Assembly: GCA_016202915.1 (NCBI GenBank)
Contig: JACQNT010000049.1
Location: forward strand, 1-22,675
DNA length: 22,675 nucleotides
Direction: 5' to 3'
DNA from: Acidobacteriota bacterium
Lineage (GTDB): Bacteria; Acidobacteriota; Polarisedimenticolia; Gp22-AA2
Below the pieces are notes generated by a model. It saw only the letters and a program-made list of their open reading frames with translations, was not told the origin of the DNA and searched no databases. Below are positions 1,077 to 18,299 of this stretch, one piece after another. How positions within the stretch are numbered: position 1 is the first letter of the stretch; each line of letters opens with the position of its first letter. A program made the translations under genes and the position numbers.

Positions 1077-2504
1077 CTACCGGCCGGTCGAGACCGTGGC
1101 GAGGGGCGCCGGCCGCTGCGTGCCGTTCAGCAGCACGTAGAACAGGTTGTCCTGGAAGCCGCGGTTGGCCGGAAGCAGCCCGTGCGACTCGCAGAAGAAA
1201 AAGGTCGAGGCGAAGTCGGTCCGGCCGCCCGTCGCCGCGGGCGCGCCAGCCGGGCCGTCCACGTCGATCGCCAGCAGCGACCGGGCCGTCACGCTCCCGT
1301 CGCCGGGCGAGAACATCAGGGCCTCGATCGGCCCGGGGCCGCGGTCGGGCGAGGCCCTGGCTTCGAACAGCGTCACCGGCCCCTCGGGGGTCTGCTTCAG
1401 GATCACCCGGTCGAGGGTCGGGACGCAGTCGGAGCCGAACAGATGGATCGGGACCGGCGAAGCGCGCCCCGCGTCCCGGTCCAGGGCGCCCCGGAAGGCG
1501 CGCGCGCGGTCCAGGGCGGCCTGCAGGAAGCGCTGCATGCGCGCCGGGTCCCCGGGCTCCGTCCGGGACCTGGGGTCGAAGACCGACCAGCGGTTCCTCA
1601 CCCAGGCCGCGGCGTCGTAAAGATCGGCCTCGAGGGGCCGGCCCTCCGGATCGATGAACCGCCGGCCGCCCGTGGGCAGGAGCTGGTAGATGGAGGGCAT
1701 GGTGAACAGCGCCTGCCGCGCCAGGGCCCGGGAGAACCCGGTGTGCAGGATCTTGAAGGCGGACATCGCGCCCCGGCGCGGCGTGCCGATCAGGACGATC
1801 CTGCCGAGGTCGGCCGCGCCGGCGTACGTGACCGGATGCTCCTTCCCGTCGCCGGTCACGTCCCTGCCGCCGTACTTCATGTAGTAGTCCGCCACCAGCC
1901 CGCCCATGCTGTGCGCCACGATGTCGAAGCGCAGGGCCGGGTTCTTGAAGCGTGACTTGATCCGCTCGATGGCGCGCCCCAGGCCGATGGCCGCCTCGAT
2001 GTTGTCGCGGCGCCAGTCGTAGTAATAGACGAAGCAGGTGTCCCCCGGCCGCGGGTCGTTGATGTCGCCGATCCGGTAGCGGCCCACCTCGCGCAGCGCC
2101 TCCAGGATCGCGCCGTAGAACTTCACCCCGACGAACGTCTCGTAGATGTCGTAGGGGACCAGGTTGTCCCGGTTCTCCTGGATCGGCAGGCGATCGATCG
2201 GCAGGCTCAGATCGTCGAGCCGGTCGCGCTTGAGGAGGCTGAGCAGGCGTCCCCAGACCGATTCGTTGGTGTGGCGGTTGCGCAGCTTCGATCCCAGGAA
2301 GCCCGGGATCACGATGACCGGGTTGCGGGGCATGGCGGCCGATTCCTGGTGGATGCGGGCCATGTCGTACCGGCCGAACACCGCGCACTGCAGGACCGAT
2401 GCGGCCGCGAGCAGCGCCGCGAGCAGGAGGCCCAGGCCGACCCGCGGCGAGGGCGCCGGGCGGCCGGTGGGTGGCGCCGGGCTTCCGGGTGAGGCAGTGG
2501 CCAT
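1077..2504 (-). CDS. Secreted alpha/beta-hydrolase, LCAT/PGAP1-like lipase/acyltransferase family
   Basis: ATG at 2504 (the track ORF starts at an upstream TTG). GGGGAG RBS. N-terminal signal peptide (VGLGLLLAALLAAASV). PGFLGS motif and nucleophile elbow AHSMGG (GxSxG). Roughly 150-aa C-terminal extension. Confidence 0.8.
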   Translation of the reverse strand: MATASPGSPAPPTGRPAPSPRVGLGLLLAALLAAASVLQCAVFGRYDMARIHQESAAMPRNPVIVIPGFLGSKLRNRHTNESVWGRLLSLLKRDRLDDLSLPIDRLPIQENRDNLVPYDIYETFVGVKFYGAILEALREVGRYRIGDINDPRPGDTCFVYYYDWRRDNIEAAIGLGRAIERIKSRFKNPALRFDIVAHSMGGLVADYYMKYGGRDVTGDGKEHPVTYAGAADLGRIVLIGTPRRGAMSAFKILHTGFSRALARQALFTMPSIYQLLPTGGRRFIDPEGRPLEADLYDAAAWVRNRWSVFDPRSRTEPGDPARMQRFLQAALDRARAFRGALDRDAGRASPVPIHLFGSDCVPTLDRVILKQTPEGPVTLFEARASPDRGPGPIEALMFSPGDGSVTARSLLAIDVDGPAGAPAATGGRTDFASTFFFCESHGLLPANRGFQDNLFYVLLNGTQRPAPLATVSTGR

Positions 2505-2571
2505 CGTGTCCGCTCCCCTGATGCAAGGGTGAAATCCGGCGGGACAACGGGCAGGCCGCCGCGGGGAGGCA

Positions 2572-2600
2572 AATATAGGTTTCGGCGGGGACACATTCAA
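2572..2600 (-). promoter_or_regulatory. Candidate promoter TTGAAT-17-TATATT for the lipase gene
   Basis: On the minus strand, -35 TTGAAT (plus 2595-2600) and -10 TATATT (plus 2572-2577) with a 17-nt spacer. About 60-nt leader to the ATG at 2504. Confidence 0.45.
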
Positions 2601-2660: not shown

Positions 2661-4763
2661 CTAGCGGGAGGGGGCGGAGCCGGCCGGTTCGAGGGGGAAC
2701 TTTCCGGAGTACCTGAGCATCTGCATGGTCAGGTCGGAGGCGTACTCGATCCGGGCGTCGATCACCTCGCCGGCAGCGTCCCGGACCGGCACCACGTCGG
2801 GCATCACGAAGGCCACGTAGGAAGGGATGCCGGCGCGCTCGGCGCGCCCGACGACCTCGTCCCGCAGGGCGGGAGCGATGCGGATGGCGAACCGCTCCAT
2901 CAGGTCCCGGGCGGCCGCGAAGTCCCCCTCCCCCTTGATCCTCTGGACCTCGGCCAGGAGGTCGGCCACACCCCGGCGCATGGCGGCGATGTCCTTCACC
3001 CGCATGTAGGTCCTGCCGTCCCGGCGGACCCGCTCCACCGCCCCGGTCACCTCGCGCAGGTGGCCGACGATCAGGTGGATCGCCCGCATGTGGTCGTCCT
3101 CGAGGACCTCCCCCTGGCGGATCCTCCGCAGCATGTAGAGATCGTCGGTCGCATAGTCCCGGTACGCCGCCTCGGCGACCTCCGCCGAGCGGACCGCGCC
3201 GATCTCGACCAGCTTCGGATCGAAGAAGTGGTGCAGGGCGATCAGCTCCGCGCGGGCCTCCTCCAGCGCGGAGTAGTGCTCCCGGAGATGGTCCCGGGGA
3301 TCTCCCTGGAGAGCGTCGCTGACCTTGCCGGAGGCGTGGCCGAGGACCTCGTGCATCGCCGTGTGCAGGAGGGCGATGTCGGCGCCGTGCGCCTCCTGGA
3401 GCGGGCGGTCCTCCGGGAGGAAGAACTCCGCCACCTTCCTGGAGCGCGCCGCCCGCTCCGCGGAGTCCATCACGTTGACGAGCGACACGCTCTTGTTGCC
3501 GTGGCGCTCCCTGATCGCCTCCTCGTTCGGCAGGTTGATGCCAACCGGGGGCATCGGGCCGCTGTCCCCGACGGCGACCAGGACGTTCACGGCGTTGGCG
3601 ATCGGGATGTTGAATTCCTTCCTCGTGTAGCGCTCGTCCCACGGGGCGCGGTCCTCGAAGTACCGGGCCAGGCCGGCGAGGTCCTTCTGGATCCGGTTCA
3701 TGCGGCGATCCACGAAATAGACCAGGCCCTCGAACGCCCCCTTCTGGCCGCGCGGGTCCTTGTACGTCTCGATGAACCCGTTGACCGTGTCGACGGGCGC
3801 GTCGTGCCGCACCCAGGCGATGTTGTAGCGCCGGAACGCCTCCGGATCGCCGCCGGCGAAGTAGTCGATGAGGCGCCCCAGGATCGCCGCCTGGGCGGGG
3901 TCCGCGAAGGCGCGGGCCTTCTCCAGGAAGCCGATCGCCGTCTGCAGCTCCGCGGCGTAGCGGCCGGGAGGGACCTCCGCGCCGGCGCCGGAGGCGCCGC
4001 CGGCCCGGCGGCCGGCCCGGTACACCTCCTCGACCACGGAGCCGCCGCGCTTCACCAGCCGGGAGTTGAGCGCGTGCCTCTCGTCGAAGCCGCGCAGATC
4101 ATCGAGGGTGACCCCGGCGTGGAAATTCACGCTGCTGCAGGTCAGGATGTCCTGCCCCGGCTGCGGCGTCTTGCAGGTCGACAGGGGCTCGAAATCGGGG
4201 TCGAAGATCGCGCGCCGCAGGCGGGCGAGCTTCGCCTGGAGCGACTCGCCGAGCGCCAGGCGGATGCGCGCCCCGTCGCGCACGGCGGCCCTGGCGGCCC
4301 CCTCGAGCTGCTCGAAGGTGAGCTCCGGGACGAACTTTCTTCGCGTCCGGTCGTTGTGGTTGCCGTTGTTGATCCAGTACAGCTTCAAGTATTGATGCAG
4401 GGCCTCGCGGACGTCCCCGGGGATCTCCCGCGGGTGGGTCAGGATCTCCTCCAGGAGATCGCGCACCTCCAGGCCGTCCCGCCCCATCTGGTCGTAGAAG
4501 ATGTCGCGCCCGGCGATGGCCGCCCGGCAGAGGTAGTAGGCGAGCGCCCTCTCGCGGGGCGACAGGTCCTCGAAGCCGTCGGCGTACAGGCGCGCCACGG
4601 CGAACTCCCCGACCGTCTCGAGGAGATACAGGCGGGTATCAGGCTCTGTGGCGGATCGGTCCATGGTCCTGGTGCCGGTGTCCGGGCAGGCGACCGTGAC
4701 AAGAGCCGTGGCCAGGCTGCATGCCAGGATGCGCGCCCCCGGCGTGGAGTCGTGCCGTTTCAT
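2661..4763 (-). CDS. Dipeptidyl-peptidase III (M49 family zinc metallopeptidase)
   Basis: 700 aa with ATG at 4763. The two M49 signature motifs HEVLGH (HExxGH) and EEARAE (EExRAE) are present. N-terminal hydrophobic signal, possibly a lipoprotein (ACS/VAC). Confidence 0.85.
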   Translation of the reverse strand: MKRHDSTPGARILACSLATALVTVACPDTGTRTMDRSATEPDTRLYLLETVGEFAVARLYADGFEDLSPRERALAYYLCRAAIAGRDIFYDQMGRDGLEVRDLLEEILTHPREIPGDVREALHQYLKLYWINNGNHNDRTRRKFVPELTFEQLEGAARAAVRDGARIRLALGESLQAKLARLRRAIFDPDFEPLSTCKTPQPGQDILTCSSVNFHAGVTLDDLRGFDERHALNSRLVKRGGSVVEEVYRAGRRAGGASGAGAEVPPGRYAAELQTAIGFLEKARAFADPAQAAILGRLIDYFAGGDPEAFRRYNIAWVRHDAPVDTVNGFIETYKDPRGQKGAFEGLVYFVDRRMNRIQKDLAGLARYFEDRAPWDERYTRKEFNIPIANAVNVLVAVGDSGPMPPVGINLPNEEAIRERHGNKSVSLVNVMDSAERAARSRKVAEFFLPEDRPLQEAHGADIALLHTAMHEVLGHASGKVSDALQGDPRDHLREHYSALEEARAELIALHHFFDPKLVEIGAVRSAEVAEAAYRDYATDDLYMLRRIRQGEVLEDDHMRAIHLIVGHLREVTGAVERVRRDGRTYMRVKDIAAMRRGVADLLAEVQRIKGEGDFAAARDLMERFAIRIAPALRDEVVGRAERAGIPSYVAFVMPDVVPVRDAAGEVIDARIEYASDLTMQMLRYSGKFPLEPAGSAPSR

Positions 4764-4830: not shown

Positions 4831-6345
4831 CTACAGGGCGTCCGTGGCGCTCAGGATCCCGCCCAGGTACAGTTCCCGCTTCTCTCCCGCCCGGGCGCGG
4901 AGGCGCACGCCGATGAAGAAGTCGAATTCGGAATACGCGCTCTGCAGGAGGCGCTCGAGCCCCTCGATGTCCTTGACCTGTCGCCAGCGGGCGGTGTCTC
5001 GCTCAGCCCGCTCGAGATCCTTCTTGACGAGAAGGCTCTGGAGCAGATCACCCGGCGCCACCTTTTCCGCCGCCGCCTCCGATCCGGGGAGCACCCTGGT
5101 GACCATCAGGCCCGACGAGCCGCGCGGCGCGATCTCGAACCCGCCGTAGAACCGGAGCAAATCGGCTCCCTCCAGACGGGGACGGTCCGGCCGGAGCGCC
5201 AGGGTGACCGGGACCGTGAGGCGCTCCCGGGCCCGGGCGATCTCGATGCTCCAGGCCTCGTCCGGCCTGGCGCCGAGGAGCCTGGCGTGGACCCGGGCGG
5301 TCGAGAGATCCTCGTCCCCCTGGATCTTCAGCAGGCCGTCGCCGCGGCGCAGGCCGGCCCGGGCGGCGGGGCTCCCCGGGAACACGTTCTCGATAACCCG
5401 GCGCACCTCGGATGGCAGGGAGTACGTGGAGCGGGTCTCCGGATCGGCGGCGATGGTGTGGATGCCGATCCAGGGACGCCCTGGCCGCCCGGCGCGGATC
5501 CAGGCCAGGGCCCTCTCGATCCATTCGAGCGGAATGGACCAGCGGACGCCGATGTCCGGTCCCATGATCATGTGGCGGCCGACCGGCAGGGCCGTGCTCA
5601 TGCCGACCAGTTTCCCCGCGTCGTCGATCATCGGCCCTCCCGCGAACCCCGCGGGCAGTGAGGCATCGGTCTGGATGTAGTCCTCGATCGGATGAATCCT
5701 CTGGCCTCCGCGGTGCAGGCCGCTGACTACGCCCGCCGACGAGGACAGCTCATGCGCCGCCAACCCGCCGGAAGGGAAGCCCAGGGCGTTCAGCGACTCT
5801 CCCAGTCGCAGGGGGCCCCTGCGCCGCTCCAGCGGCGGCACCTGCTTGAGGTCGGCCTCAAGGAGCGCCACGCCGATGAGCGGGTCCATGCCGATCACCC
5901 GCGCCGGGACGCCGCGGCCGTCCAGGGAGCGCAGGGACACCTCCCTGGCGCCGTTCAGCAAGCCGGCGTCGCTGACGAATTCGCCCGGGGCGATGGCGAA
6001 GGCGCTCCCGAGGATCGACCCGACCTCGACCGACTCGCCGTAAACGATGGCCCCGAAGGCCGAGGTCAACTGCTTGTCGTGCACCGCCGTCAGCTGCACG
6101 ACCGACCGCCGGGCACCCGGACGGTCTGCCGCCTGGACGGCCGGCCCGGCCGGCGCGGCGCCGACCTTGCGGCCGCAGCGGGTGCAGAAGGCGGCACCAG
6201 GCTCAGTGGGGGCGCCGCAGGCCGGGCAGCGATCGTGGGAAGCCACGGGGGGCTCGGCGGTTGCGGGGGGTTCGGCTGCGACGGGAGCGGCCAGCCACGC
6301 CGCCAGCACCAGGAGGAGAGCGAGGGAGCGTCGTCGCGTCATCAT
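4831..6345 (-). CDS. HtrA/DegP-like pseudo-protease with N-terminal C4 zinc-ribbon and PDZ domain (triad His->Gly, Asp->Gly, Ser->Ala)
   Basis: 504 aa. Signal peptide MMTRRRSLALLLVLAAWLAAPVAA. Zinc-ribbon CPACG-x10-CTRCG. Trypsin-fold core aligns with the upstream active paralog, but the triad positions read SDAGL (His lost), GVALL (Asp lost) and GFAGGP (Ser lost). PDZ-like C-terminal region. ATGA start/stop overlap with the upstream gene at 6345. Confidence 0.85.
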   Translation of the reverse strand: MMTRRRSLALLLVLAAWLAAPVAAEPPATAEPPVASHDRCPACGAPTEPGAAFCTRCGRKVGAAPAGPAVQAADRPGARRSVVQLTAVHDKQLTSAFGAIVYGESVEVGSILGSAFAIAPGEFVSDAGLLNGAREVSLRSLDGRGVPARVIGMDPLIGVALLEADLKQVPPLERRRGPLRLGESLNALGFPSGGLAAHELSSSAGVVSGLHRGGQRIHPIEDYIQTDASLPAGFAGGPMIDDAGKLVGMSTALPVGRHMIMGPDIGVRWSIPLEWIERALAWIRAGRPGRPWIGIHTIAADPETRSTYSLPSEVRRVIENVFPGSPAARAGLRRGDGLLKIQGDEDLSTARVHARLLGARPDEAWSIEIARARERLTVPVTLALRPDRPRLEGADLLRFYGGFEIAPRGSSGLMVTRVLPGSEAAAEKVAPGDLLQSLLVKKDLERAERDTARWRQVKDIEGLERLLQSAYSEFDFFIGVRLRARAGEKRELYLGGILSATDAL

Positions 6346-7952
6346 CAGTAGACCGGCGGGGCAAGAAGGTCGGGAAGGAGGCTGAAGTAGGTGCGCCGTT
6401 CGGGTTTGCCGTCCTCGGTACGGACCTCCAGGGGCACGATGTAGGCGGAGCTCGCCACCGTGCCCTTCTGACCGTCCATCTCCCCGAAGATGTGGCCGTT
6501 CTCCGAGCGGATGATGTCCCGGAAGGTGTCGAAGCGGCGAACGTGCCTGCTGTAAACCCGCACGATGGTGTCGCCGTTCTTGTATCCCGCCTCGGCGCCC
6601 CGCCCCCCGGGGACCAGATCCTTGATCAGGAGGCCGTGCCGCGAGGTCGGCCCGGTCGTCACCTCGACGAGGTTGGCCTGCAGGGCCTCCCTGATTTCAT
6701 CGACCGGGTCGAGCAGAATGCGGTCCGGGCGCGTGCCGGGCGCGACCGCGGCGTCCGTCTCCTGTCCGGCACGCAGGAGTGTGAGCCCCAGGGGCGGGCT
6801 GCCAGGCGAGGCGGCGAGCAGGCGTGCCCCGGCCTCGGCCACCGTCGCCACCTTCTGTCCCCGCACCGCGAGGATGATGTCGCCGGGACGCACACCGGAT
6901 GACTCGGCGGGCGAGCCGGGAACGACGTACGCGACCAGCGGCTGCGTGACGGCCGGTTCGAGACCGAACCGGGCGCGCTGGCGATCATCCGGCGCCACCA
7001 ACCCCATGCCGAAATAGACCCTCTGGGGACGGGTCTTGTGGGACATGATCTCGACCATCGGGCCGACATCGCCGGCCGGCACGGCGTAGGCCAGGCTGGG
7101 GCTGGGTCCGCCGAGCAGGGTCCCTGCCAGGCCGCCGCGCAGATCGATGAGCGGGCCGCCGGTGCATCCTCCCGGCAGGGTGTGATCGGTCCGCAGGAGG
7201 TTCTCGAAGGCGACGAGGCTGGTGCCGGACTGTCCCGTCGCCGTGATCCGGCCGCGGTGCAGCGACTGCGGAAGGTAGTGGACGAGATCCTCCTCCATCG
7301 CGACGGGGTAGCAGATCGCCCAGGCTCCTTCACCCGTCGCGGGTTCGGATTCGGCCGGCTGCAGGGGCGCCGACCCCTGGAGATCGGCCCGCAGCAGGCC
7401 GATGCCGGAGGGGATGTCATAGCCCAGGATCTCGGCGGCGACGAGCCGGTTGTTGTAGGTGCGGACCTGCGGCGCGCTCGCCCGCTCGAGTACGCGGGCG
7501 GAGGTGACGAAGAGGCCCGGGCCGCCGTAGGAGAAGGCGGTCGCGAAGGCCTTGTGCCTGCCCGGCTTGAAGTCCATCAGGCGGTACCGGGTGATGAGCC
7601 TCTGCAGATCCGTCGGCAGGAGTTCCTTCGGATTGAGATCGTCCTTGACCACCACGAGCCCGACGACTGAGCGGCTGATCGCTTCCAGGCGACGGGCGGC
7701 CTCCGGCCCGGTCAGAGTGCGGAGGTCCCAGCCGCAGCTGGCGCAGTGGCGCCAGGCGCCGTCGCACCGGTAGCCGCACCGGGGGCAAATCCTCTGCGCG
7801 GTCGCCGGCCGGGCGGCGCCCTCGGGCGGGAGGGCAGGAGGCGCCGGACCCGCCGGCACCGGCAGCCCGGCCAGCGCGCCCGCCACGACGCCGGCGCTGA
7901 GCAGCGCCATCAACCACAGGAGAGTCTCAGAGGACGATCGCCCAGGACTCAT
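6345..7952 (-). CDS. HtrA/DegP-like pseudo-protease with N-terminal zinc-ribbon and PDZ domain (triad His->Arg, Asp->Gly, Ser->Thr)
   Basis: 535 aa. Hydrophobic N-terminus, zinc-ribbon CPRCGYRCDGAWRHCASCG. TSARV where TNAHV is expected, GIGLL where DLALL is expected, and GCTGGP where GNSGGP is expected. Two PDZ-like segments. The start at 7952 overlaps the stop of the upstream gene by 26 nt; an alternative ATG lies at 7910. Confidence 0.85.
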   Translation of the reverse strand: MSPGRSSSETLLWLMALLSAGVVAGALAGLPVPAGPAPPALPPEGAARPATAQRICPRCGYRCDGAWRHCASCGWDLRTLTGPEAARRLEAISRSVVGLVVVKDDLNPKELLPTDLQRLITRYRLMDFKPGRHKAFATAFSYGGPGLFVTSARVLERASAPQVRTYNNRLVAAEILGYDIPSGIGLLRADLQGSAPLQPAESEPATGEGAWAICYPVAMEEDLVHYLPQSLHRGRITATGQSGTSLVAFENLLRTDHTLPGGCTGGPLIDLRGGLAGTLLGGPSPSLAYAVPAGDVGPMVEIMSHKTRPQRVYFGMGLVAPDDRQRARFGLEPAVTQPLVAYVVPGSPAESSGVRPGDIILAVRGQKVATVAEAGARLLAASPGSPPLGLTLLRAGQETDAAVAPGTRPDRILLDPVDEIREALQANLVEVTTGPTSRHGLLIKDLVPGGRGAEAGYKNGDTIVRVYSRHVRRFDTFRDIIRSENGHIFGEMDGQKGTVASSAYIVPLEVRTEDGKPERRTYFSLLPDLLAPPVY

Positions 7953-9537
7953 CGAAGGCCACCGAAGTCAAGGGATACTGGTCCTCTCCGCAATGGATCG
8001 CCGCGGCGAATCGCCCGCCCAGGTAGGCCCGTCCCAGGGCGCGGCGCAGGTCGTCGAGACCGCCGACCTGCACGACCCCGGGCAGCTTCTTGTAATCGAC
8101 AAGATCGATCCAGGTATCGGGCCAGTCCTGCGCCGGCAGTACGCTCGTGAGGCGGCAGCCGTCCGACAGCCCGTACTTGCGGGCCACGCTGAATTCGTCG
8201 GTCATCCGCAGAGTCACGCCCTTCCCGCCCGGCTCCTCCTCGACGCGCACCATCAGATACCGTGCCAGGTCAAGGATCGGGTCGATGCGGGGTTCCTCCG
8301 GGCGCGCGACGGTCGTCACCGGAAGCTCCAGGACCTGGCCGGTGCGGTCCAGGGTCATGCGCAGGCTCACCCCAGGTCCGACACTGGCGACCGCCTCCTG
8401 GAGGAGGTACGTGGCGGCGGCCTCGCGGCCGTTGATGCCAAAGAGGACATCTCCCGGGTTGAACCCGGCCCCCGCTGCGGGCGATCCCGCCAGGACCGAC
8501 TCGACCACCGAGCCTGTGGCCCGCTTCACCGTGAACCGCTGGAGGGCCTCCGCATCGACCGGGCGGACCTGGACCCCCAGGAATCCCCGCTCGTAAGTGC
8601 CCCGCTGCCGCAGGCGCTCCATCACCAGACGGGCCATCTTCGAGGGGATTGAGTAGCCCTGCCCCTTGGCCTGGTGGAAGCCCATGTTGCTCACCCCCAC
8701 GACCCGTCCCAGCAGGTCCACGAGGGGCCCGCCGCTGTTGCCGCCGGTGATGGAGGCGTCGGAGTGCAGGAAGTTCTCCACCTGCTGGAGGCCGGTGCGC
8801 AGCCGCGTCATGCTGGAGATCGTCCCCCGGGTAACCGAGATGCCGAGGTCGAGTGGATTGCCGATCGCCCAGGTCTCCTCGCCGAGGCGGACTTGGTCCG
8901 AATCACCCCAGGTGAGCGGGGGAATCGAGCCCGAATCGATCTTGAGGAGCGCCAGGTCGCTGGCGCGGTCGATCCCCAGGACGCGGGCGGGGAAGCTGCG
9001 GCCGTCCTGCGTTTCGACGGTCAGCCGGGCCTGGGTTCCGAAAGGGCTGGCGACGTGGGCGTTGGTGACGATCTCGCCGTCCGGAGAGACGGCGAACCCG
9101 GATCCCGCCAGACGGCCCTCGTCGTCGAAGGATTCGAGCCTGCCCTTGTAGCCCCGCAGGCGGGTCGAACGCTCGATCACCGGGTACCTCAGCTTCGCGG
9201 CCGCCTTGACCCGGACCCGGACGACCGAGCGGGTGGCGCGGCGGACCGTCTCCTGGATCTCCCCGGCCGACAGTGTCTCGGGAGCCCGCAGGAAGCCGCC
9301 CGCGTAGCGAACCGGATCGATGGCAGGGAGCGGACTGCCGTCCTTGAGGCAGAAGCGGCTGCCGGCGCGGTTCTGCGCCCCGCAGACCGGGCAGAAGACG
9401 GAGGCCGAGTCACGGACCGGCTGCAGTTGCGCGGAGCCGGAGTCCGGTTCCTGCGCCGGCCCGATGTCCGTCGCCGGGAGCAGCAGCATCGCCGCGATCG
9501 GCGTCGCGTTGCGCCATGAGGATCGTCGGGTGTGCAT
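7927..9537 (-). CDS. HtrA/DegP-family serine endoprotease with intact catalytic triad, N-terminal 3-Cys ribbon-like motif and PDZ domain
   Basis: ATG at 9537 with a GGGAGA RBS. The longer GTG (9684) and ATG (9672) starts would overlap the divergent OPT promoter. Catalytic motifs TNAHV (His), DLALLKI (Asp) and GNSGGP (Ser) are present. CPVCG-x10-C follows the signal peptide. PDZ: GFLGVQV...GDVLFGINGR. Confidence 0.85.
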   Translation of the reverse strand: MHTRRSSWRNATPIAAMLLLPATDIGPAQEPDSGSAQLQPVRDSASVFCPVCGAQNRAGSRFCLKDGSPLPAIDPVRYAGGFLRAPETLSAGEIQETVRRATRSVVRVRVKAAAKLRYPVIERSTRLRGYKGRLESFDDEGRLAGSGFAVSPDGEIVTNAHVASPFGTQARLTVETQDGRSFPARVLGIDRASDLALLKIDSGSIPPLTWGDSDQVRLGEETWAIGNPLDLGISVTRGTISSMTRLRTGLQQVENFLHSDASITGGNSGGPLVDLLGRVVGVSNMGFHQAKGQGYSIPSKMARLVMERLRQRGTYERGFLGVQVRPVDAEALQRFTVKRATGSVVESVLAGSPAAGAGFNPGDVLFGINGREAAATYLLQEAVASVGPGVSLRMTLDRTGQVLELPVTTVARPEEPRIDPILDLARYLMVRVEEEPGGKGVTLRMTDEFSVARKYGLSDGCRLTSVLPAQDWPDTWIDLVDYKKLPGVVQVGGLDDLRRALGRAYLGGRFAAAIHCGEDQYPLTSVAFDESWAIVL

Positions 9538-9568
9538 GGGGGTCTCCCGATGGCCGAGGATGCGCCAC

Positions 9569-9598
9569 ATTCTATGGGAACCGGACGCGCGGCCGCAA
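9569..9598 (-). promoter_or_regulatory. Candidate promoter TTGCGG-18-TAGAAT for the protease operon
   Basis: Minus-strand -35 (plus 9593-9598) and -10 TAGAAT (plus 9569-9574). About 25-nt leader to the ATG at 9537. Confidence 0.4.
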
Positions 9599-9634
9599 CG
9601 CCCCGCGGCCCCACAATCGCCGGGACGCCGTCCG

Positions 9635-9663
9635 TTGACACCTCCGGGGGGCTGAGGTAAAGT
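9635..9663 (+). promoter_or_regulatory. Candidate promoter TTGACA-17-TAAAGT for the OPT transporter
   Basis: Consensus -35 TTGACA at 9635-9640 and -10 TAAAGT at 9658-9663. About 90-nt 5'UTR before GGAGAGG and the ATG at 9759. Confidence 0.5.
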
Positions 9664-9758
9664 CCCGCGCATCGCACGACGCACCCCGCACCTGGATTTC
9701 GAGCTGTCCGCACCGGCGCATGAGGATCAACAGCAGCAAGGATCGAGACTGAGGAGAG

Positions 9759-11771
9759 GTGGGCATGCGAACCGAATCGCGAGCGGGCGCGGCGACCGCG
9801 GAGAAGGCGTTCCGGCCGTTCGTCGCCGACACGGCCACGGTCAAGGAGTTCACCCCCAAGGCGGTCCTCCTGGGCGCCTTCTTCGCCGTCCTGTTCGGCG
9901 CGGCCACCGTCTACCTGGCGCTCCGGGCCGGCGTCACGGTCAGCGCCTCCATCCCGATCGCCGTCCTGGCGATCGCCGTGTTCAAGAGGATCGGCTCGAC
10001 CATCCTGGAGAACAACATCGTCCAGACGATCGGATCGGCTGGGGAGTCGGTGGCGGCCGGGGTCGTGTTCACCGTCCCGGCCTTCCTCTTCCTGGCCTCG
10101 GCCGCCGGCGGGGAGCGCTTCTTCAAGTACTGGCCGATCCTGATGCTGTCGATGGCGGGCGGATTCCTGGGCGTCCTTTTCATGGTCCCGCTCCGGCGCA
10201 GTCTCATCGTGCAGGAGCACGGCGTCCTGCCGTACCCGGAGGGGACTGCCTGCGCCGAGGTGCTGGTCGCGGGCGAGCGGGGTGGCGCCATGGCCCGGAT
10301 GGTCTTCAACGGGCTGTGGATGGCGATGATCTACAAGCTGTTCAACACCGTCCTCGGCTTCTTCAAGGAGGTTCCATCCTACGTCACGGGGAGGAGCGCC
10401 CCCCTTCCCAACGCGACCGTAAACGCCGAGATCGTCCCGGAGTACCTGGGGGTCGGATACATCATCGGGCCGCGGGTGGCGGGGATCATGGTGTCAGGGA
10501 GCATCCTGGGGTGGGTGGCCCTGACGCCGCTCCTGTCGCTGTTCGTCAGCGAGCAGCAGCTCCACGACCAGCTGCGCTCCCTGGGCTTCACGCAGGGCTG
10601 GATCGACACGCACGGGCTCAACGAGCAGTTCTACCGCGGCTACGTCCGCCTGATCGGCGCGGGGGCGGTGGCGATGGCCGGGATCATGACGCTGGCGAGG
10701 ACGCTGCCGACGATCTGGTCGGCGTTCCGCGCCAGCGTCCGGAGCCTCGGCGGCGGGACCGGAGGCGGGGTGATGGCGCGGCGCACCGAGAGGGACATCC
10801 CGATGTCGGTCGTGCTGGGCGGCTCCGCCGTGCTGGTCCTGGTGATCGCCCTGTTCATGCCGGGCCTGCCGACCCGCTTCCCGGGAAGCCTCCTGCTGGC
10901 GTTGCTCATCGTCGCCTTCGGGTTCTTCTTCGTCACCGTCTCGTCGCGCATCGTCGGCATCATCGGATCGACCAGCAACCCGATCTCCGGGATGACGATC
11001 GCCACGCTGATGGGGACCTGCATGTTCTTCATCCTGATCGGATGGGCCGGGGACGTGTACCAGACCGCCGCCCTGGTCGTGGGCGCCATCGTGTGCATCG
11101 CCGCGGCCAACGCCGGCGCCACCTCGCAGGATCTCAAGACGGGGTACATCGTCGGCGCCACCCCCTGGCTGCAGCAGATCGGCCTGGTGATCGGCGTCTT
11201 CGCGTCGGTGTTCGCCATCGGCGGCACGCTGTTCCTGATGCACCACTCGGGCTACGGGCCGATTGGATCCGACAAACTGCCGGCGCCCCAGGGGACCCTC
11301 ATGGCGACGCTCATCCAGGGGATCCTCGGCCAGAACCTCCAGTGGGGCTTCGTGTTCGTCGGGGCGGCGCTCGCCGTGATGGTGCAGGTCATGGGGATTT
11401 CCTCCCTGGCCTGGGCCGTCGGCGCCTACCTGCCGCTCTCGACCACGATGCCGATCTTCATCGGGGGGATGATGCGGCTCATCGCCGAGAGGGTGGGCGG
11501 CAAGAGGGAGGAGTCGGAGGTCTCATCCGGGATGCTCTACAGCACCGGCCTGGTCGCGGGAGGATCGATCGGCGGCGTCCTGATCGCGGCCCTGTCGGCC
11601 GCCCCCTGGGGCGAGGGGAATCTCCTGGAGGTCGTCAACATCGGCCACCGCTGGCGCATCGTGGCGATGCAGGGGGTGGCCGCCGACCTGATCGCCCTCG
11701 CCGTCTTCGGGTTCCTGTGCCTCCTCCTCCTGCGGGCCGCGAGGAAGAAGATCGAGGGGATGGAGGCCTGA
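9759..11771 (+). CDS. OPT-family oligopeptide transporter
   Basis: 670 aa with many TM helices. The N-terminal region FTPKAVLLGAFFAVLFGAATVYLALRAGVTVSASIPIAVLAIAVFKR is characteristic of bacterial OPT-family permeases. Strong RBS. Confidence 0.9.
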   Translation: MGMRTESRAGAATAEKAFRPFVADTATVKEFTPKAVLLGAFFAVLFGAATVYLALRAGVTVSASIPIAVLAIAVFKRIGSTILENNIVQTIGSAGESVAAGVVFTVPAFLFLASAAGGERFFKYWPILMLSMAGGFLGVLFMVPLRRSLIVQEHGVLPYPEGTACAEVLVAGERGGAMARMVFNGLWMAMIYKLFNTVLGFFKEVPSYVTGRSAPLPNATVNAEIVPEYLGVGYIIGPRVAGIMVSGSILGWVALTPLLSLFVSEQQLHDQLRSLGFTQGWIDTHGLNEQFYRGYVRLIGAGAVAMAGIMTLARTLPTIWSAFRASVRSLGGGTGGGVMARRTERDIPMSVVLGGSAVLVLVIALFMPGLPTRFPGSLLLALLIVAFGFFFVTVSSRIVGIIGSTSNPISGMTIATLMGTCMFFILIGWAGDVYQTAALVVGAIVCIAAANAGATSQDLKTGYIVGATPWLQQIGLVIGVFASVFAIGGTLFLMHHSGYGPIGSDKLPAPQGTLMATLIQGILGQNLQWGFVFVGAALAVMVQVMGISSLAWAVGAYLPLSTTMPIFIGGMMRLIAERVGGKREESEVSSGMLYSTGLVAGGSIGGVLIAALSAAPWGEGNLLEVVNIGHRWRIVAMQGVAADLIALAVFGFLCLLLLRAARKKIEGMEA

Positions 11772-11811
11772 CCCGGATCGCGCCCCCCGAGGCGCCTCCC
11801 TGCCTCACGAC

Positions 11812-13194
11812 GTGACCACGCTCCGCCGCGAGCTGCGGCTGTGGGACCTGGTCCTCCTGAACGTGGTCGCCATCACCGGCTTGAGGTGGTGGCTGACCTC
11901 GGCGGGAGGATACGGCTACGCCGCGCTGCCGCTGTGGGGGCTGGCGTTCCTGTGCTTCTTCGTCCCCTCCGGCCTCGCCGTCATCGACCTGACCACCCGC
12001 TACCCCGAGGAGGGGGGCATCTACGCCTGGACCAAGCGCGCCTTCGGCGACGGCCACGGGTTCATCTCCGGCTGGTGCCTGTGGACCAACAACCTGATCT
12101 ACTTCCCCCACTTATTGATCTTCACCGTCGGGAACTTCATCTTCATGCTCGGGCCGGAGCGGGCCAATCTGGAGGACAGCCCCCTGGTCATGATGGCGGC
12201 GTCGCTGCTCCTTTTCTGGATCGCCGTCTGGATGAACGTGCGGGGGCTGCGCTACGGCCGCTGGCTGAACAACCTCGGGGCGTTCGGCACCTGGGTCCCG
12301 GCGACGCTGCTCACCCTCCTGGGGGCCTGGGCGGTCGCGCGCTACGGGGCGGCCACGCCGTTCGCGGCGTCCGGCCTGGTCCCGGTGTTCAGCCTGGGGA
12401 CCGTGGCGTTCTTCGCGCAGATCTGCTTCGGCTACTCGGGCCTCGAGCTCGGATCGATGATGGGAGAGGAGATCGTCGAGCCGCGGAAGAACGTGCCCCG
12501 CGCCATCCTGATCGCCGGCGCGATCATCACCTTGATCTACATGCTCGGGACCGCGGCCCTGCTGTTCGCGCTGCCCCAGAGCGAGATCGGGATCCTGAGC
12601 GGCGTCGGCGTCGCCATCGCGGCGGTCCAGGAGAAGATGGGGCTCGGGTTCCTGGCGGGGATCTCGGCGCTGCTGATCGCCCTCGGGGGGATGGGGGGCG
12701 TCAGCGCCTGGCTGGCCGGATCGTCCCGGATCCCGTACGTCGCGGGGATCGATCGCTACCTGCCTGCGTCATTCGGCAGCGTCCACCCGCGCCGCGGATC
12801 GCCGCACGTCGCCCTGCTCGTCACCGGGGGCGTGTCGAGCCTGCTGATCGTGATGAGCTTCGCGGGGGCCGGCGTCAGGGAAGCCTACCTGCTCCTCGCC
12901 GACTTCACCATCGTCGTCTACTTCATCCCCTACCTCTACCTCTTCGCCGCCCTCATCCGGCTGGGCGTCCCCGGGACCGTCACGCCGGGCGTCATCCCCG
13001 TCCCGGGCGGGCGGCCCGCCACCATCCTGGTCGGCGCCGTGGGCTTCCTGACCACCGCCACGGCGATCCTCTTCGCCTTCAGCCCCCCCGAGGGGACCAA
13101 CCGCTGGGTCTTCGTCGGGAAGATCCTGGGCGGCTGCGTCCTCCTCCTGGTCCTGGGGTGGCTCCTCTACAGGCGCGGCCGCCGCGCGGCCTGA
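11812..13194 (+). CDS. APC-superfamily amino-acid permease
   Basis: 460 aa, about 12 TM segments. N-terminus LRRELRLWDLVLLNVVAITG is typical of the APC family. GTG start 40 nt after the OPT stop with no clear SD, so it is probably co-transcribed. Confidence 0.8.
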   Translation: MTTLRRELRLWDLVLLNVVAITGLRWWLTSAGGYGYAALPLWGLAFLCFFVPSGLAVIDLTTRYPEEGGIYAWTKRAFGDGHGFISGWCLWTNNLIYFPHLLIFTVGNFIFMLGPERANLEDSPLVMMAASLLLFWIAVWMNVRGLRYGRWLNNLGAFGTWVPATLLTLLGAWAVARYGAATPFAASGLVPVFSLGTVAFFAQICFGYSGLELGSMMGEEIVEPRKNVPRAILIAGAIITLIYMLGTAALLFALPQSEIGILSGVGVAIAAVQEKMGLGFLAGISALLIALGGMGGVSAWLAGSSRIPYVAGIDRYLPASFGSVHPRRGSPHVALLVTGGVSSLLIVMSFAGAGVREAYLLLADFTIVVYFIPYLYLFAALIRLGVPGTVTPGVIPVPGGRPATILVGAVGFLTTATAILFAFSPPEGTNRWVFVGKILGGCVLLLVLGWLLYRRGRRAA

Positions 13195-13788: not shown

Positions 13789-14073
13789 TCAGCGATCGGA
13801 GTGCCCCAGGTCCCTCCCCGGAGCGACCCGGTCGCGCACGATCTGCTTCAGCTCCTTGAGTTCGGGGAAACGCCCCCTCTCCTGGCGCGACCAGACCACG
13901 TCGCCGTCCAGGCGCACCTCGAACACGCCCCCGGTCCCCGGGACCAGCACCACTTCCCCCAGTTCCGCCTCGAAGGTGGTCAGCAGCTCCTGCGCCGTCC
14001 AGGCGGCGCGGAGGAGCCAGCGACACTGCGTGCAGTAGCGGATCTCCAGCCGCGGGCGGCGGGCCGCCGTCAT
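13789..14073 (-). CDS. Rdx-family (SelW/SelT-like) redox protein, Cys-containing CxxC form
   Basis: 94 aa: RLEIRYCTQCRWLLRAAW...VVLVPGTGGVFEV...GRFPELKELKQIVRD matches the Rdx fold signature. CTQC is not a Sec-containing motif (no in-frame TGA). ATGA overlap with the upstream gene. Confidence 0.8.
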   Translation of the reverse strand: MTAARRPRLEIRYCTQCRWLLRAAWTAQELLTTFEAELGEVVLVPGTGGVFEVRLDGDVVWSRQERGRFPELKELKQIVRDRVAPGRDLGHSDR

Positions 14074-14621
14074 TCCGACGGTTTCATCGTGGCGTGCTCG
14101 TGGAGGATCTTCCAGTCCTCGGCCGTCTTCTCCAGGACCAGCGACAGCGCCCCCTGGATCTGGGTGCTCCCCTGGGCGGTGGCGATGGTCATCGTGTAGG
14201 GCGCGACGGCCAGAGCGTGGTCCGTCCCGAGCGGGGTGACGTCGGGAGAGCCGAGGGACATCTTGAAGCCGCGCTCCTCGCCCCTCATCCTGCCGGCGCT
14301 GGCCCGGATCGCCTCCCAGCCGCGGGTGATCTCCCCGCTGTCGATCGACGCGACGCCCGGCTTCCTGCTGAAGAGATCCATGAGGGCCGCCGCGTTGGCC
14401 TTGTTGACCGCGTCGGTGTAGGCGCGCAGCAGCCTCTGCACTCCCTCCCGCGGTGCCGCGGTGGCCGGGGCAGACGGGGCAGACGAGGCAGACGGGGCGG
14501 CTGGGGTTGAAGCGTGTTCCTTGGGGGACGGGGAGGGCGGGTTGGGCGCATCCTCACGGGCGATCGCGTCCGGCCCGCCGAGCAGACAAGCGAGCGCGAC
14601 CAGAATCGGCAAGCGTGACAT
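14070..14621 (-). CDS. Secreted NTF2-like (SnoaL/DUF4440-like) protein with Pro/Ser/Ala-rich linker
   Basis: ATG at 14621 with a GGGGAGG RBS. Signal peptide MSRLPILVALACLLGG. PSAPSAPATAAP linker, then an NTF2-like core (LLRAYTDAVNKANAAALMDLF...ITRGWEAIRA). Confidence 0.65.
   Translation of the reverse strand: MSRLPILVALACLLGGPDAIAREDAPNPPSPSPKEHASTPAAPSASSAPSAPATAAPREGVQRLLRAYTDAVNKANAAALMDLFSRKPGVASIDSGEITRGWEAIRASAGRMRGEERGFKMSLGSPDVTPLGTDHALAVAPYTMTIATAQGSTQIQGALSLVLEKTAEDWKILHEHATMKPSE
14470..14496. repeat. Three tandem 9-nt units (GCAGACGRG) encoding the PSAPSAP linker
   Basis: gcagacggg gcagacgag gcagacggg, read directly. Confidence 0.6.
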
Positions 14622-14672
14622 CTTCGTGTCCTCCCCTAACCGGCGATTTGTCTGTGCGGCGTCCTTGCCAGG

Positions 14673-14731
14673 AATATACGCCACCATCCCGCCGGCGGCA
14701 AGTCGGGGGGCCCCTGAGGTATCCCCAGTTT
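14673..14731 (-). promoter_or_regulatory. Promoter TTGCCG-17-TATATT plus conserved upstream 21-nt motif (AAACTGGGGATACCTCAGGGG)
   Basis: Minus-strand -10 (plus 14673-14678) and -35 (plus 14696-14701). The motif lies at plus 14711-14731, 9 nt upstream of the -35. The same motif and spacing recur at 22499-22519. Confidence 0.45.
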
Positions 14732-17257: not shown

Positions 17258-17270
17258 GCGTCCCGGGCCC

Positions 17271-17891: not shown

Positions 17892-17907
17892 GGCGCGCCC
17901 GGCCCGG

Positions 17908-18288: not shown

Positions 18289-18299
18289 GCGCAGGCTGT

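What the first reader, a model, noticed from the sequence alone, without database searches (positions are those of the whole stretch)
4831..9537. Translationally coupled trio of HtrA-like paralogs: one active protease followed by two catalytically dead copies
Three consecutive minus-strand genes share the same architecture: signal/anchor, Cys-ribbon, trypsin-fold core, PDZ.

Alignment of the cores shows the first gene (7927-9537) keeps His (TNAHV), Asp (DLALL) and Ser (GNSGGP). The second has His->Arg, Asp->Gly and Ser->Thr. The third has His->Gly, Asp->Gly and Ser->Ala. So all three triad residues are lost in both downstream paralogs, while they remain full-length with PDZ domains.

The genes overlap: 26 nt between the first and second, and an ATGA overlap at 6345 between the second and third. 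This implies stoichiometric co-expression.

HtrA proteases work as trimers or higher oligomers. An operon that fixes a 1:1:1 active/inactive paralog ratio suggests an obligate hetero-oligomer in which the dead subunits act as PDZ-bearing substrate receptors or allosteric regulators. Such an arrangement is not known to me for bacterial HtrA.
Basis: partly seen in the sequence, partly recalled or inferred. Interest (0 to 1): 0.85.

Follow-up and report, generated by a model that had tools for sequence, protein, structure and literature searches.

The report
One active, two dead HtrA paralogs
A three-gene operon conserved in uncultured Acidobacteriota encodes one working periplasmic HtrA protease followed by two ancient copies that have lost every catalytic residue yet are kept intact, so they most likely act as non-cutting partner subunits of the protease.

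Summary
Three consecutive minus-strand genes (7927-9537, 6345-7952, 4831-6345) each encode signal peptide, Cys ribbon, trypsin-fold domain and two PDZ domains. Gene 1 keeps His/Asp/Ser. Gene 2 has Arg/Gly/Thr and gene 3 has Gly/Gly/Ala at those positions. One correction: the g2/g3 junction is TGATG (1-nt overlap), not ATGA.

The dead copies are not decaying. Each belongs to a sharply bounded orthologous family (about 62 and 94 clusters, 41-59% identity) in which the triad is lost throughout. The 110 gene-1 orthologs all keep it. The order g1-g2-g3 is kept in about 30 loci wherever the contig reaches, including two remote lineages (37% and 59% GC). The 26-nt g1/g2 overlap is exact in 18 other loci.

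New findings: all three families end in conserved hydrophobic C-terminal tails, the PDZ1 carboxylate-binding loop sequence is retained, and the L3 sensor loop is better conserved in the dead copies than in the active one.

Best reading: a hetero-oligomeric HtrA particle, most simply a g1.g2.g3 trimer, with one catalytic site. Physical association is inferred, not shown.

Precedents exist (MamE/MamO, Deg5/Deg8, DEG7), so this is a new variant of a known kind.

The parts
7927..9537 (-). g1: active HtrA (536 aa). Signal peptide, CxxC..CxxD ribbon, protease domain with His161/Asp194/Ser268, PDZ1, degenerate PDZ2-like domain, conserved tail FDESWAIVL-COOH.
   Evidence: Identical to an NCBI protein of 536 aa on a 22675-bp contig.
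6345..7952 (-). g2: pseudoprotease (535 aa). Signal peptide, CxxC..CxxC ribbon, protease fold with Arg153/Gly183/Thr264 at the triad positions, PDZ1, PDZ2, tail ..LAPPVY-COOH.
4831..6345 (-). g3: pseudoprotease (504 aa). Signal peptide, CxxC..CxxC ribbon, protease fold with Gly128/Gly158/Ala235 at the triad positions, PDZ1, PDZ2, tail ..ILSATDAL-COOH.
7927..7952 (-). 26-nt g1/g2 overlap. The g2 ATG lies inside the Asp-Glu codons (gATGag) of the conserved g1 tail.
   Evidence: Identical 26-nt geometry in L001-L013 and in L020/21, L024, L026, L030, L031. In L022 it is replaced by an ATGA overlap.
6343..6347 (-). g2 stop / g3 start junction TGATG (1-nt overlap).
   Evidence: In relatives the junction ranges from a 4-nt overlap to a gap of about 14 nt.
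9055..9057 (-). g1 catalytic His161 codon. Asp194 is at 8956-8958 and Ser268 at 8734-8736.
   Evidence: H/D/S are kept in all 110 family clusters wherever the column is present.
7494..7496 (-). g2 Arg153 at the His position. Gly183 (7404-7406) is at the Asp position and Thr264 (7161-7163) at the Ser position.
   Evidence: In the family, Arg occurs in 53/63 and Gly in 61/63; the Ser position is unconstrained.
5962..5964 (-). g3 Gly128 at the His position. Gly158 (5872-5874) is at the Asp position and Ala235 (5641-5643) at the Ser position.
   Evidence: In the family, Gly/Ala/Ser occur in 90/95, Gly in 93/95 and Ala in 82/95 at these three positions.
9340..9393 (-). g1 Cys ribbon CPVCGAQNRAGSRFCLKD. 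The g2 ribbon is at 7725-7787 and the g3 ribbon at 6172-6228.
   Evidence: Such a ribbon is present in only 1 of 61 other HtrAs sampled.
7930..7956 (-). Conserved C-terminal tail of g1 (FDE[ILV]WPI[IV][LF]-COOH). The g2 tail is at 6348-6371 and the g3 tail at 4834-4857. Proposed PDZ ligands (inference).
7200..7241 (-). g2 L3 sensor loop (ATGQSGTSLVAFEN). g3 L3 is at 5680-5721 and g1 L3 at 8773-8814.
   Evidence: L3 conservation is 0.70 (g2 family) and 0.76 (g3 family) against 0.63 in the active family.
9569..9598 (-). Sigma-70-like promoter of the trio: TTGCGG (9598-9593), 18-nt spacer, TAGAAT (9574-9569). A Shine-Dalgarno GGGAG lies at 9548-9544, before the ATG at 9537.
   Evidence: The block is conserved in 4 of 5 aligned relatives. 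It lies inside the longer GTG-9684 ORF, which argues for the 9537 start.
2661..4763 (-). Context: Peptidase_M49 (DPP III-like) with a lipoprotein-type signal, 67 nt downstream of g3. An LCAT-like alpha/beta hydrolase follows at 1077-2600.
   Evidence: Linked to the trio only in the closest relatives (L005, L010, L020, L024).
9759..13194 (+). Context: divergently transcribed OPT oligopeptide transporter (9759-11771) and amino-acid permease (11812-13194).

Best explanation
The locus is a conserved, co-transcribed and translationally coupled operon for three exported DegP/DegQ-type paralogs. Each has a signal peptide, a metal-ribbon-like knuckle, a protease fold, PDZ1 and PDZ2.

Shown:
- g1 is a canonical serine endopeptidase by sequence.
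- g2 and g3 descend from one ancestral copy that lost the catalytic Asp (to Gly) and then duplicated.
- Both have lost all three triad residues in essentially every known member, yet remain under purifying selection.
- The three genes are always found together, in this order.

Inferred:
- The three proteins assemble in the periplasm into one hetero-oligomeric HtrA particle. The simplest form is a g1.g2.g3 heterotrimer, because the trimer is the universal HtrA building block. It may stack into larger cages through the PDZ domains.
- The particle would have a single catalytic site per trimer.
- The dead subunits would contribute peptide-binding PDZ domains, a substrate-holding but non-cutting cleft, and their conserved L3 sensor loops. 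In HtrA trimers L3 acts in trans on loops LD/L1/L2 of the neighbouring subunit (DegS/DegP mechanism, established knowledge). They would therefore gate or activate g1.
- The conserved hydrophobic C-terminal tails of all three proteins are proposed to be built-in PDZ ligands that hold the particle together or set its activation state.
- In the nearest relatives the operon sits between peptide and amino-acid importers and an exported M49 peptidase. This suggests extracytoplasmic protein breakdown for nutrition. That link is not conserved in distant relatives.
For: Fold and architecture:
- Pfam, NCBIfam and PDB sequence matches for all three proteins.
- AF2 models of g2 and g3 are confident (pLDDT 84.7 and 86.1, pTM 0.79) and match DegP/DegQ over about 430-450 columns.

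Triad status by family:
- F1: H/D/S kept 106/106, 107/107 and 110/110.
- F2: Arg 53/63 and Gly 61/63; the Ser position is free.
- F3: Gly 93/95 and Ala 82/95.

Selection:
- Mean column identity is 56% (F1), 50% (F2) and 55% (F3).
- There is a sharp score gap to ordinary HtrAs.

Co-occurrence and order:
- g1-g2-g3 is found in every locus that reaches far enough: L001-L017, L020-L026, L028-L032.
- It is also found in two remote lineages, L103 and L104.
- The flanking genes differ between loci.

Coupling:
- The 26-nt overlap is exact in 18 other loci. Where the internal ATG is lost it is replaced by ATGA.
- The g2/g3 junction runs from a 4-nt overlap to a 14-nt gap.
- There is no terminator inside the trio.

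Common origin:
- A shared N-terminal ribbon, present in only 1 of 61 other HtrAs.
- NJ tree: F2+F3 group together and F1+F2+F3 separate from the others in 50/50 bootstraps.

Hints of partnership:
- Conserved tails with a fixed end in all three families.
- The g2 tail is unstructured with low confidence in the monomer model, although its sequence is nearly invariant.
- The sequence aligned to the PDZ1 carboxylate-binding loop (GFLGV / YFGMG / WIGI) is retained.
- L3 is more conserved in the dead families than in the active one, although their protease domains are less conserved overall.

Precedent:
- MamO promotes MamE-dependent proteolysis (PMC4794232).
- A degenerated HtrA domain mediates oligomerisation in DEG7 (PMC3194040).
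- A self-supplied PDZ ligand controls the Deg2 oligomer (PMC3481350).
Against: - No test of physical interaction was possible. No multimer prediction, no co-purification data and no usable co-variation signal are available.
- HtrA paralogs are usually described as homo-oligomers (PMC3194040 abstract).
- Translational coupling does not enforce 1:1:1 ratios.
- The tail-to-PDZ idea rests only on conservation and on one low-confidence tail. The g3 tail is predicted with high confidence (pLDDT about 87), so it may simply pack onto its own domain.
- The L3 conservation difference is modest (0.70 and 0.76 against 0.63).
- For MamE/MamO, the closest precedent, the passages read here do not describe a stable hetero-oligomer.
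- The nutritional context holds only for the nearest relatives.
Confidence: 0.55

Rival explanations
1. Independent non-catalytic chaperones. g2 and g3 each form their own homo-oligomers and act as periplasmic holdases or scaffolds. They are co-regulated with the protease g1 but do not share a particle with it.
For: - DegP retains chaperone activity when its catalytic Ser is mutated (established knowledge). Deg2 has dual protease-chaperone activity (PMC3481350).
- HtrAs are normally homo-oligomers (PMC3194040).
- The dead copies keep the cleft-forming GG-P motif and the PDZ1 carboxylate-binding-loop sequence.
- Nothing here tests interaction.
Against: - It does not explain why exactly two dead paralogs always accompany one active paralog, in fixed order with coupled translation, across lineages from 37 to 74% GC.
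- It does not explain why L3, a loop whose known role is inter-subunit activation of a catalytic site, is kept in proteins that have no catalytic site.
Confidence: 0.25
2. MamO-like repurposing. One or both dead paralogs have acquired a new ligand- or metal-binding activity at or near the former active site, and influence g1 only indirectly.
For: - g2 has invariant Cys214, Cys263 (next to the dead Ser position), His232 and His257 around the former active site.
- Arg at the His position is conserved in 53/63 members, so the site is not drifting freely.
- MamO binds metal through a di-His motif on the same fold (PMC4794232).
- All three proteins carry an exported Cys ribbon.
Against: - The Cys pair may just be a periplasmic disulfide.
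- g3 has no comparable invariant His/Cys set.
- There is no metal-related gene context.
- This reading is compatible with, rather than exclusive of, a hetero-oligomer.
Confidence: 0.12
3. The downstream copies are decaying pseudogenes or annotation artefacts.
For: Two related scaffolds carry frame breaks: L014 in g2 and L015 in g1. L027 holds only the C-terminal part of g2.
Against: - Intact ORFs of about 500 aa occur in about 62 and 94 clusters at 41-59% identity, with dozens of invariant positions.
- GC3 is 0.81-0.88, typical of coding sequence in this genome.
- The AF2 folds are confident.
- One of the two frame breaks is in the active gene, which points to assembly error.
Confidence: 0.01
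4. A hidden or shifted catalytic apparatus. g2 or g3 is still a protease that uses other residues, for example Thr264 or Cys263 with His257 in g2.
For: - g2 in this window has Thr at the nucleophile position.
- It has an invariant Cys one residue earlier and an invariant His seven residues earlier.
Against: - The nucleophile position in the g2 family is Leu, Thr, Ser, Arg, Ala or Gln, so it is unconstrained.
- The Asp position is Gly in 61/63 and 93/95 members.
- Three independent alignments agree on the columns.
- In MamO the equivalent Thr is dispensable (PMC4794232).
Confidence: 0.04

Closest known systems
MamE / MamO (and LimE/LimO, duplicated MamE1/MamE2) of magnetotactic bacteria
   Same: - An active HtrA and a catalytically degenerate HtrA paralog are encoded in one gene cluster.
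- The pseudoprotease is retained by selection and promotes proteolysis by the active one.
- Duplication followed by triad loss happened repeatedly.
- MamO also has Thr at the nucleophile position (PMC4794232).
   Different: - One dead partner, not two.
- MamO carries a TauE transporter domain and a di-His metal site. MamE has magnetochrome haem motifs (own knowledge).
- The context is the magnetosome island.
- No N-terminal ribbon, no conserved C-terminal tails and no overlapping genes are reported.
- Here both His and Asp are replaced, and the module occurs in Acidobacteriota-type MAGs.
Arabidopsis Deg5-Deg8 complex of the thylakoid lumen
   Same: Two HtrA paralogs work together. One of them, Deg5, has had no protease activity detected (PMC3640471). 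That they form a hetero-complex is from my own knowledge (Sun et al. 2007), not checked here.
   Different: - Both keep a full triad.
- Deg5 lacks a PDZ domain.
- The genes are nuclear and unlinked.
- The described assembly is two homotrimers stacked, not mixed trimers.
Plant DEG7
   Same: A degenerated, inactive HtrA protease domain is kept because it mediates oligomerisation of an active one (PMC3194040).
   Different: The active and dead domains are fused in one polypeptide. It is eukaryotic, with one dead domain per active domain.
E. coli DegP/DegQ and DegS (canonical HtrA)
   Same: - Same fold and domain order: protease, PDZ1, PDZ2.
- The L1/L2/L3/LD loop framework is retained.
- PDZ binding of hydrophobic C-termini, with L3-to-neighbour activation, is the mechanism borrowed for the model (established knowledge).
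   Different: - These are homo-oligomers with three active sites per trimer.
- They have no ribbon.
- The activating C-termini come from substrates or outer-membrane proteins, not from the protease itself.
- TIGR02037 scores here are below the curated cut-off (254, 104 and 129 against 416).
Arabidopsis Deg2 internal PDZ ligand
   Same: An HtrA supplies its own PDZ ligand to lock an oligomeric state (PMC3481350). This is the nearest precedent for the tail hypothesis.
   Different: The ligand is an internal strand acting in cis on PDZ2, not a free C-terminus, and the assembly is a homo-hexamer.
Chloroplast ClpP/ClpR core (analogy only)
   Same: A protease ring is built from catalytic and non-catalytic paralogs (PMC6508832).
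   Different: It is an unrelated fold (ClpP), ATP-dependent and eukaryotic.

Membership tests
HtrA / MEROPS S1C (Deg/HtrA proteases) | Trypsin-fold protease domain of the Trypsin_2 type | tested here: met
   All three proteins score above the Pfam gathering cut-off of 27.6: 116.4, 48.1 and 70.3 bits. Foldseek matches the g2 and g3 models to DegP/DegQ with E about 1e-29.
HtrA / MEROPS S1C (Deg/HtrA proteases) | Catalytic triad His-Asp-Ser | tested here: not met
   Met for g1 (H161, D194, S268). Not met for g2 (R153, G183, T264) or g3 (G128, G158, A235). g2 and g3 are therefore homologs of the family but not peptidases of it.
HtrA / MEROPS S1C (Deg/HtrA proteases) | At least one C-terminal PDZ domain | tested here: met
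   PDZ, PDZ_2 and PDZ_6 hits in all three proteins. A second PDZ-like domain is seen in the alignment and in the models.
HtrA / MEROPS S1C (Deg/HtrA proteases) | Extracytoplasmic location | tested here: inconclusive
   N-terminal hydrophobic segments precede the ribbon in 96%, 78% and 94% of family members by a simple hydropathy test. No dedicated signal-peptide predictor was available.
HtrA / MEROPS S1C (Deg/HtrA proteases) | Trimer-based oligomer | not testable with these tools
   Only monomer prediction was available.
DegP/DegQ 'Do' subfamily (NCBIfam TIGR02037) | Score at or above the curated cut-off (416.2 bits) | tested here: not met
   254.4 (g1), 103.6 (g2) and 128.8 (g3) bits. This is the best-matching model, but none of the three is a member by the curated threshold.
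MamO-type HtrA pseudoprotease | Degenerate catalytic triad in a retained HtrA fold, encoded next to an active HtrA | tested here: met
MamO-type HtrA pseudoprotease | C-terminal TauE-like transporter domain and magnetosome-island context | tested here: not met
   No such domain appears in the Pfam scan. The neighbours are transporters, peptidases and housekeeping genes. NF040961 MamO matches g1 only weakly (57.7 bits against a cut-off of 800).
MamO-type HtrA pseudoprotease | Surface di-His metal-binding motif | not tested
   g2 has invariant His232 and His257. Their spatial relation, and equivalence to the MamO positions, could not be examined.
Hetero-oligomeric HtrA (Deg5/Deg8-like) | Physical association of different paralogs in one particle | not testable with these tools
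   Only indirect evidence is available: fixed synteny and coupling and conserved tails.

The most novel reading that the evidence does not exclude
An obligate asymmetric ABC heterotrimer, the first natural HtrA particle with exactly one active site per trimer. Two ancient pseudoprotease subunits would act as dedicated sensor or activator subunits through L3-to-LD/L1/L2 contacts in trans. The conserved free C-termini of the three subunits (..WPIIL, ..APPVY, ..PTxAL) would dock into one another's PDZ domains as built-in ligands, replacing the substrate-derived C-termini that activate DegS and DegP.
Probability: 0.3. Interest if true: 0.8.

Novelty: new variant of a known kind. Interest (0 to 1): 0.62.

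Why it matters
HtrA regulation is understood through symmetric homotrimers, in which every subunit is both sensor and enzyme. Trans-activation has had to be studied with artificially mixed trimers.

A natural, evolutionarily fixed set of one active and two dead paralogs would separate the sensing or holding role from the cutting role at the genetic level. That would make inter-subunit allostery directly testable.

It would also be a clean bacterial example of complexity arising by duplication and loss of catalysis, as seen in the ClpP/ClpR core (PMC6508832) and, from my own knowledge, in the proteasome beta ring.

The module also marks a poorly known, uncultured acidobacterial lineage. In the nearest relatives it sits beside peptide importers and exported peptidases, so it may bear on how these soil and sediment bacteria feed on protein.

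Tried and rejected
- Pseudogene decay. Rejected on family-wide conservation and intact ORFs. The frame breaks in L014 and L015 hit g2 and g1 alike and look like scaffold errors.
- Misplaced triad columns. Rejected because phmmer-to-PDB, a family-wide MAFFT alignment and a merged three-family alignment all agree.
- Programmed +1 frameshift fusing g1 to g2. Considered because g2 is in the +1 frame and the overlap is conserved. Rejected for three reasons: the bases before the stop are not a conserved slippery site; L022 and L103 use a 4-nt overlap in a different frame relation; and a fusion would bury the g2 signal peptide.
- The 26-nt overlap as a constraint in its own right. It is better explained by the conserved g1 tail, whose Asp-Glu codons happen to contain the ATG. 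The hydrophobic tail persists in L022 and L023, which lack that ATG.
- A conserved larger operon with M49, the LCAT-like hydrolase, OPT and the permease. This holds only for the nearest relatives. The flanks in other loci are S9, M14 and M42 peptidases, a TonB-dependent receptor, an ECF sigma factor, or unrelated genes.
- tRNA and Rfam scans of the window found nothing.
- Metagenome scan with the g3 profile. Most of the 80 returned loci were ordinary HtrAs, because the back-translated patterns were generic. Only L023-L032 were orthologs.
- Literature searches for this trio, for HtrA with a zinc ribbon, and for Polarisedimenticolia proteases found no description of it.

Full report
**What is in the sequence**

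The window is a complete 22,675-bp contig of an acidobacterial MAG. Its g1 protein is 100% identical to an NCBI entry on a contig of that length. GC content is about 70%.

Codon-position GC picks out three consecutive minus-strand genes:
- g1, 7927-9537
- g2, 6345-7952
- g3, 4831-6345

All three match Pfam Trypsin_2, PDZ families and zinc-ribbon families. Their best NCBIfam model is the DegP/DegQ 'Do' subfamily, although all three score below its curated cut-off.

- g1 has His161, Asp194 and Ser268.
- g2 has Arg153, Gly183 and Thr264.
- g3 has Gly128, Gly158 and Ala235.

The g1/g2 overlap is 26 nt. The g2/g3 junction is TGATG, a one-base overlap, not ATGA.

The g1 start at 9537 is supported by three things. 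A GGGAG lies five bases upstream. A TTGCGG-18-TAGAAT promoter-like block lies inside the longer GTG-9684 ORF, and that block is conserved in four of five aligned relatives. No terminator-like site lies on the minus strand within the trio.

**Are the dead copies real genes?**

Yes. Each of the three proteins defines a sharply bounded orthologous family in the 5.8-billion-protein collection:
- about 110 clusters for g1 (49-63% identity, then a drop from E 1e-91 to 1e-58)
- about 62 clusters for g2 (41-55%, then 1e-102 to 1e-19)
- about 94 clusters for g3 (45-59%, then 1e-86 to 1e-31)

. Source names point to Acidobacteriota, class Candidatus Polarisedimenticolia.

The triad columns behave as follows across these families:
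- The g1 family keeps His, Asp and Ser without exception.
- The g2 family has Arg at the His position in 53/63 and Gly at the Asp position in 61/63. Its Ser position is unconstrained (Leu, Thr, Ser, Arg, Ala, Gln and others).
- The g3 family has Gly/Ala/Ser at the His position, Gly at the Asp position in 93/95, and Ala at the Ser position in 82/95.

Mean column identity is 56%, 50% and 55% for the three families. The dead copies are therefore almost as constrained as the active one.

AlphaFold2 models of g2 and g3 are confident (pLDDT 84.7 and 86.1, pTM 0.79). They superpose on DegP/DegQ over about 430-450 columns, including two PDZ domains.

**Synteny and coupling**

In 17 orthologous loci from species-representative genomes and about a dozen more from metagenomes, the order g1-g2-g3 is found wherever the contig reaches. 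No gene is ever inserted.

An exhaustive profile search shows that the g2 family is compact: only a handful of 50%-identity representatives. It also turned up two intermediate-scoring proteins. Both sit in the same kind of trio, active then dead then dead, with tight junctions. One is on a contig of 59% GC and the other in a MAG of 37% GC. The module is therefore older and wider than one class.

The flanks are not conserved. The M49 peptidase, LCAT-like hydrolase, OPT transporter and amino-acid permease seen in the window recur only in the nearest relatives. Elsewhere the neighbours are S9, M14 or M42 peptidases, a TonB-dependent receptor, an ECF sigma factor, or unrelated genes.

The 26-nt g1/g2 overlap is exact in 18 other loci. 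The reason is visible in the alignment: the g2 ATG lies within the Asp-Glu codons of a conserved g1 C-terminus (..VAFDE[ILV]WPI[IV][LF]-stop). Where that ATG is absent (L022), g2 starts at an ATGA overlap instead. Coupling is therefore maintained by another route. The g2/g3 junction ranges from a 4-nt overlap to a gap of about 14 nt.

**Origin**

The three proteins are 27-29% identical to each other over nearly their whole length, including the N-terminal ribbon. That ribbon occurs in only 1 of 61 other HtrAs sampled.

In a neighbour-joining tree each family is monophyletic. g2+g3 group together, and g1+g2+g3 separate from 31 other HtrAs, in 50/50 bootstrap replicates. Long-branch effects and the small outgroup are caveats.

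The shared Asp-to-Gly change fits one loss in a common dead ancestor followed by a second duplication.

**Features that bear on mechanism**

(i) All three families have an N-terminal hydrophobic, signal-like segment followed by the ribbon. The g1 family has an invariant CxxC..CxxD (96/96). This argues for metal binding rather than two disulfides.

(ii) The oxyanion-loop GG-P motif and the sequence aligned to the PDZ1 carboxylate-binding loop are kept in the dead copies.

(iii) The L3 sensor loop is more conserved in the dead families (0.70 and 0.76) than in the active one (0.63). This holds even though their protease domains are less conserved overall (0.65 and 0.68 against 0.74). g2 also has a conserved 8-residue insertion in the LD region.

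(iv) Every family ends at a fixed position in a conserved hydrophobic tail:
- g1: ..FDE[ILV]WPI[IV][LF]
- g2: ..D.LAPPVY
- g3: ..[WY]E[IL]LTPT.A[LFI]

The g2 tail is nearly invariant, yet it is unstructured and of low confidence in the monomer model. That is what one expects of a linear motif that binds elsewhere. The g3 tail is predicted with high confidence, so it may pack in cis.

(v) g2 has invariant Cys214 and Cys263 (adjacent to the dead nucleophile position), His232 and His257.

**Interpretation**

The core conclusion is well supported: an ancient, selected module of one active and two non-catalytic HtrA paralogs that are co-expressed.

My preferred mechanism is a hetero-oligomeric particle, most simply one subunit of each kind per trimer. 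The dead subunits would provide PDZ-based recognition, a non-cutting cleft and trans-acting L3 loops. The tails would serve as built-in PDZ ligands. This is inference from four things:
- the threefold architecture of all HtrAs
- the invariable 1+2 gene set
- the coupling
- the conservation pattern

It borrows the established DegS/DegP activation scheme and has precedents: MamO promoting MamE-dependent proteolysis (PMC4794232), DEG7's degenerated domain mediating oligomerisation (PMC3194040), and the self-supplied PDZ ligand of Deg2 (PMC3481350).

No tool here could test subunit contacts. I therefore put the hetero-oligomer reading at about 0.55. The rivals are separate homo-oligomeric holdases at about 0.25 and a MamO-like new binding function at about 0.12. 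Decay and a hidden catalytic site are close to excluded.

**Novelty**

Active-plus-dead HtrA pairs are known in magnetotactic bacteria and in plants.

The searched literature does not describe the following: a conserved three-gene set matching the trimer's three positions, with two pseudoproteases of common origin, exported ribbons, conserved C-terminal tails and overlapping genes, in Acidobacteriota-type lineages. I class it as a new variant of a known kind, of moderate to high interest to HtrA and pseudoenzyme specialists.

Noticed in passing
window 9538-9758 (intergenic region between g1 and the OPT gene): A block GGACT(c/t)TACCTCAGCCCC..GG.GTGTCAAC is almost invariant in five related loci. 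On the plus strand it reads as a sigma-70-type promoter for the OPT/permease genes: TTGACA 9635-9640, 17 nt, TAAAGT 9658-9663. A second conserved pair, TTGCGG 9598-9593 and TAGAAT 9574-9569, faces g1. There is no sign of an ECF/sigma-E-type promoter of the kind that drives E. coli degP (own knowledge).
   Followed up: partly
window 9340-9393, 7725-7787, 6172-6228: All three HtrA paralogs carry a zinc-ribbon-like knuckle directly after the signal-like segment, so presumably in the periplasm. The g1 family has an invariant Cys3-Asp set (96/96); the other two have Cys4. An exported zinc ribbon on an HtrA is unusual, and its role (metal site, or specificity of trimer assembly) is unknown.
   Followed up: partly
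window 7311-7313, 7164-7166, 7257-7259, 7182-7184 (g2 Cys214, Cys263, His232, His257): Two Cys and two His are invariant in the g2 family and lie in segments around the former active site. Cys263 sits directly before the dead nucleophile position. They could form a disulfide that fixes loop L1, or a metal site. Distances could not be measured with the tools available.
   Followed up: no
window 2661-4763 and 1077-2600, minus strand: The M49 (DPP III-like) peptidase begins with a lipoprotein-like signal (..LVTVAC). The LCAT-like alpha/beta hydrolase has an N-terminal hydrophobic segment. Both are probably exported, which is unusual for DPP III. Together with the divergent OPT and amino-acid permease genes, the neighbourhood looks like an extracytoplasmic protein-to-peptide-to-uptake locus. 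This holds only in the nearest relatives.
   Followed up: partly
L103 2591-7172 and L104 4215-8789: Two remote versions of the trio, on contigs of 59% and 37% GC, have the same order and the same pattern: H/D/S, then R/E/G or Y/G/L, then dead. The called g2 of L104 is truncated. Its ORF opens upstream with a signal peptide and a CPSCGYRC..CISCGFE ribbon starting about 7 nt after the g1 stop. The taxonomy of these two contigs was not established.
   Followed up: partly
L006 and L010 (both from MAG JBGPED01); L012, L008, L011: One MAG bin holds two complete, divergent trios (g1 is 55% and 60% identical to the window). This means either two paralogous copies per genome or a mixed bin. Some orthologous loci sit in MAGs labelled Binatia, Verrucomicrobiia or Dongiaceae, which suggests mis-binning or horizontal transfer.
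   Followed up: no
L014 546-1732, L015 2-1404, L027 3840-4229: There are frame breaks with missing residues in g2 of L014 and in g1 of L015, both from one study's curated scaffolds. L027 holds only the last 130 residues of g2, preceded by an ordinary HtrA. These are probably assembly artefacts, but real decay in single lineages is not excluded.
   Followed up: partly
window 14070-22628: The remaining genes are a SnoaL-like protein (14070-14882, minus), LolA (15181-16050, minus), an SPFH/Band7-TPR protein (within 15689-17257, plus), a VTT/DedA protein (17271-17891, minus), MutS (18215-21037, plus), and a STAS protein (21056-21532, minus) with an HATPase_c_2 anti-sigma-type kinase (21906-22628, minus). 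There are no tRNA genes and no Rfam matches.
   Followed up: partly
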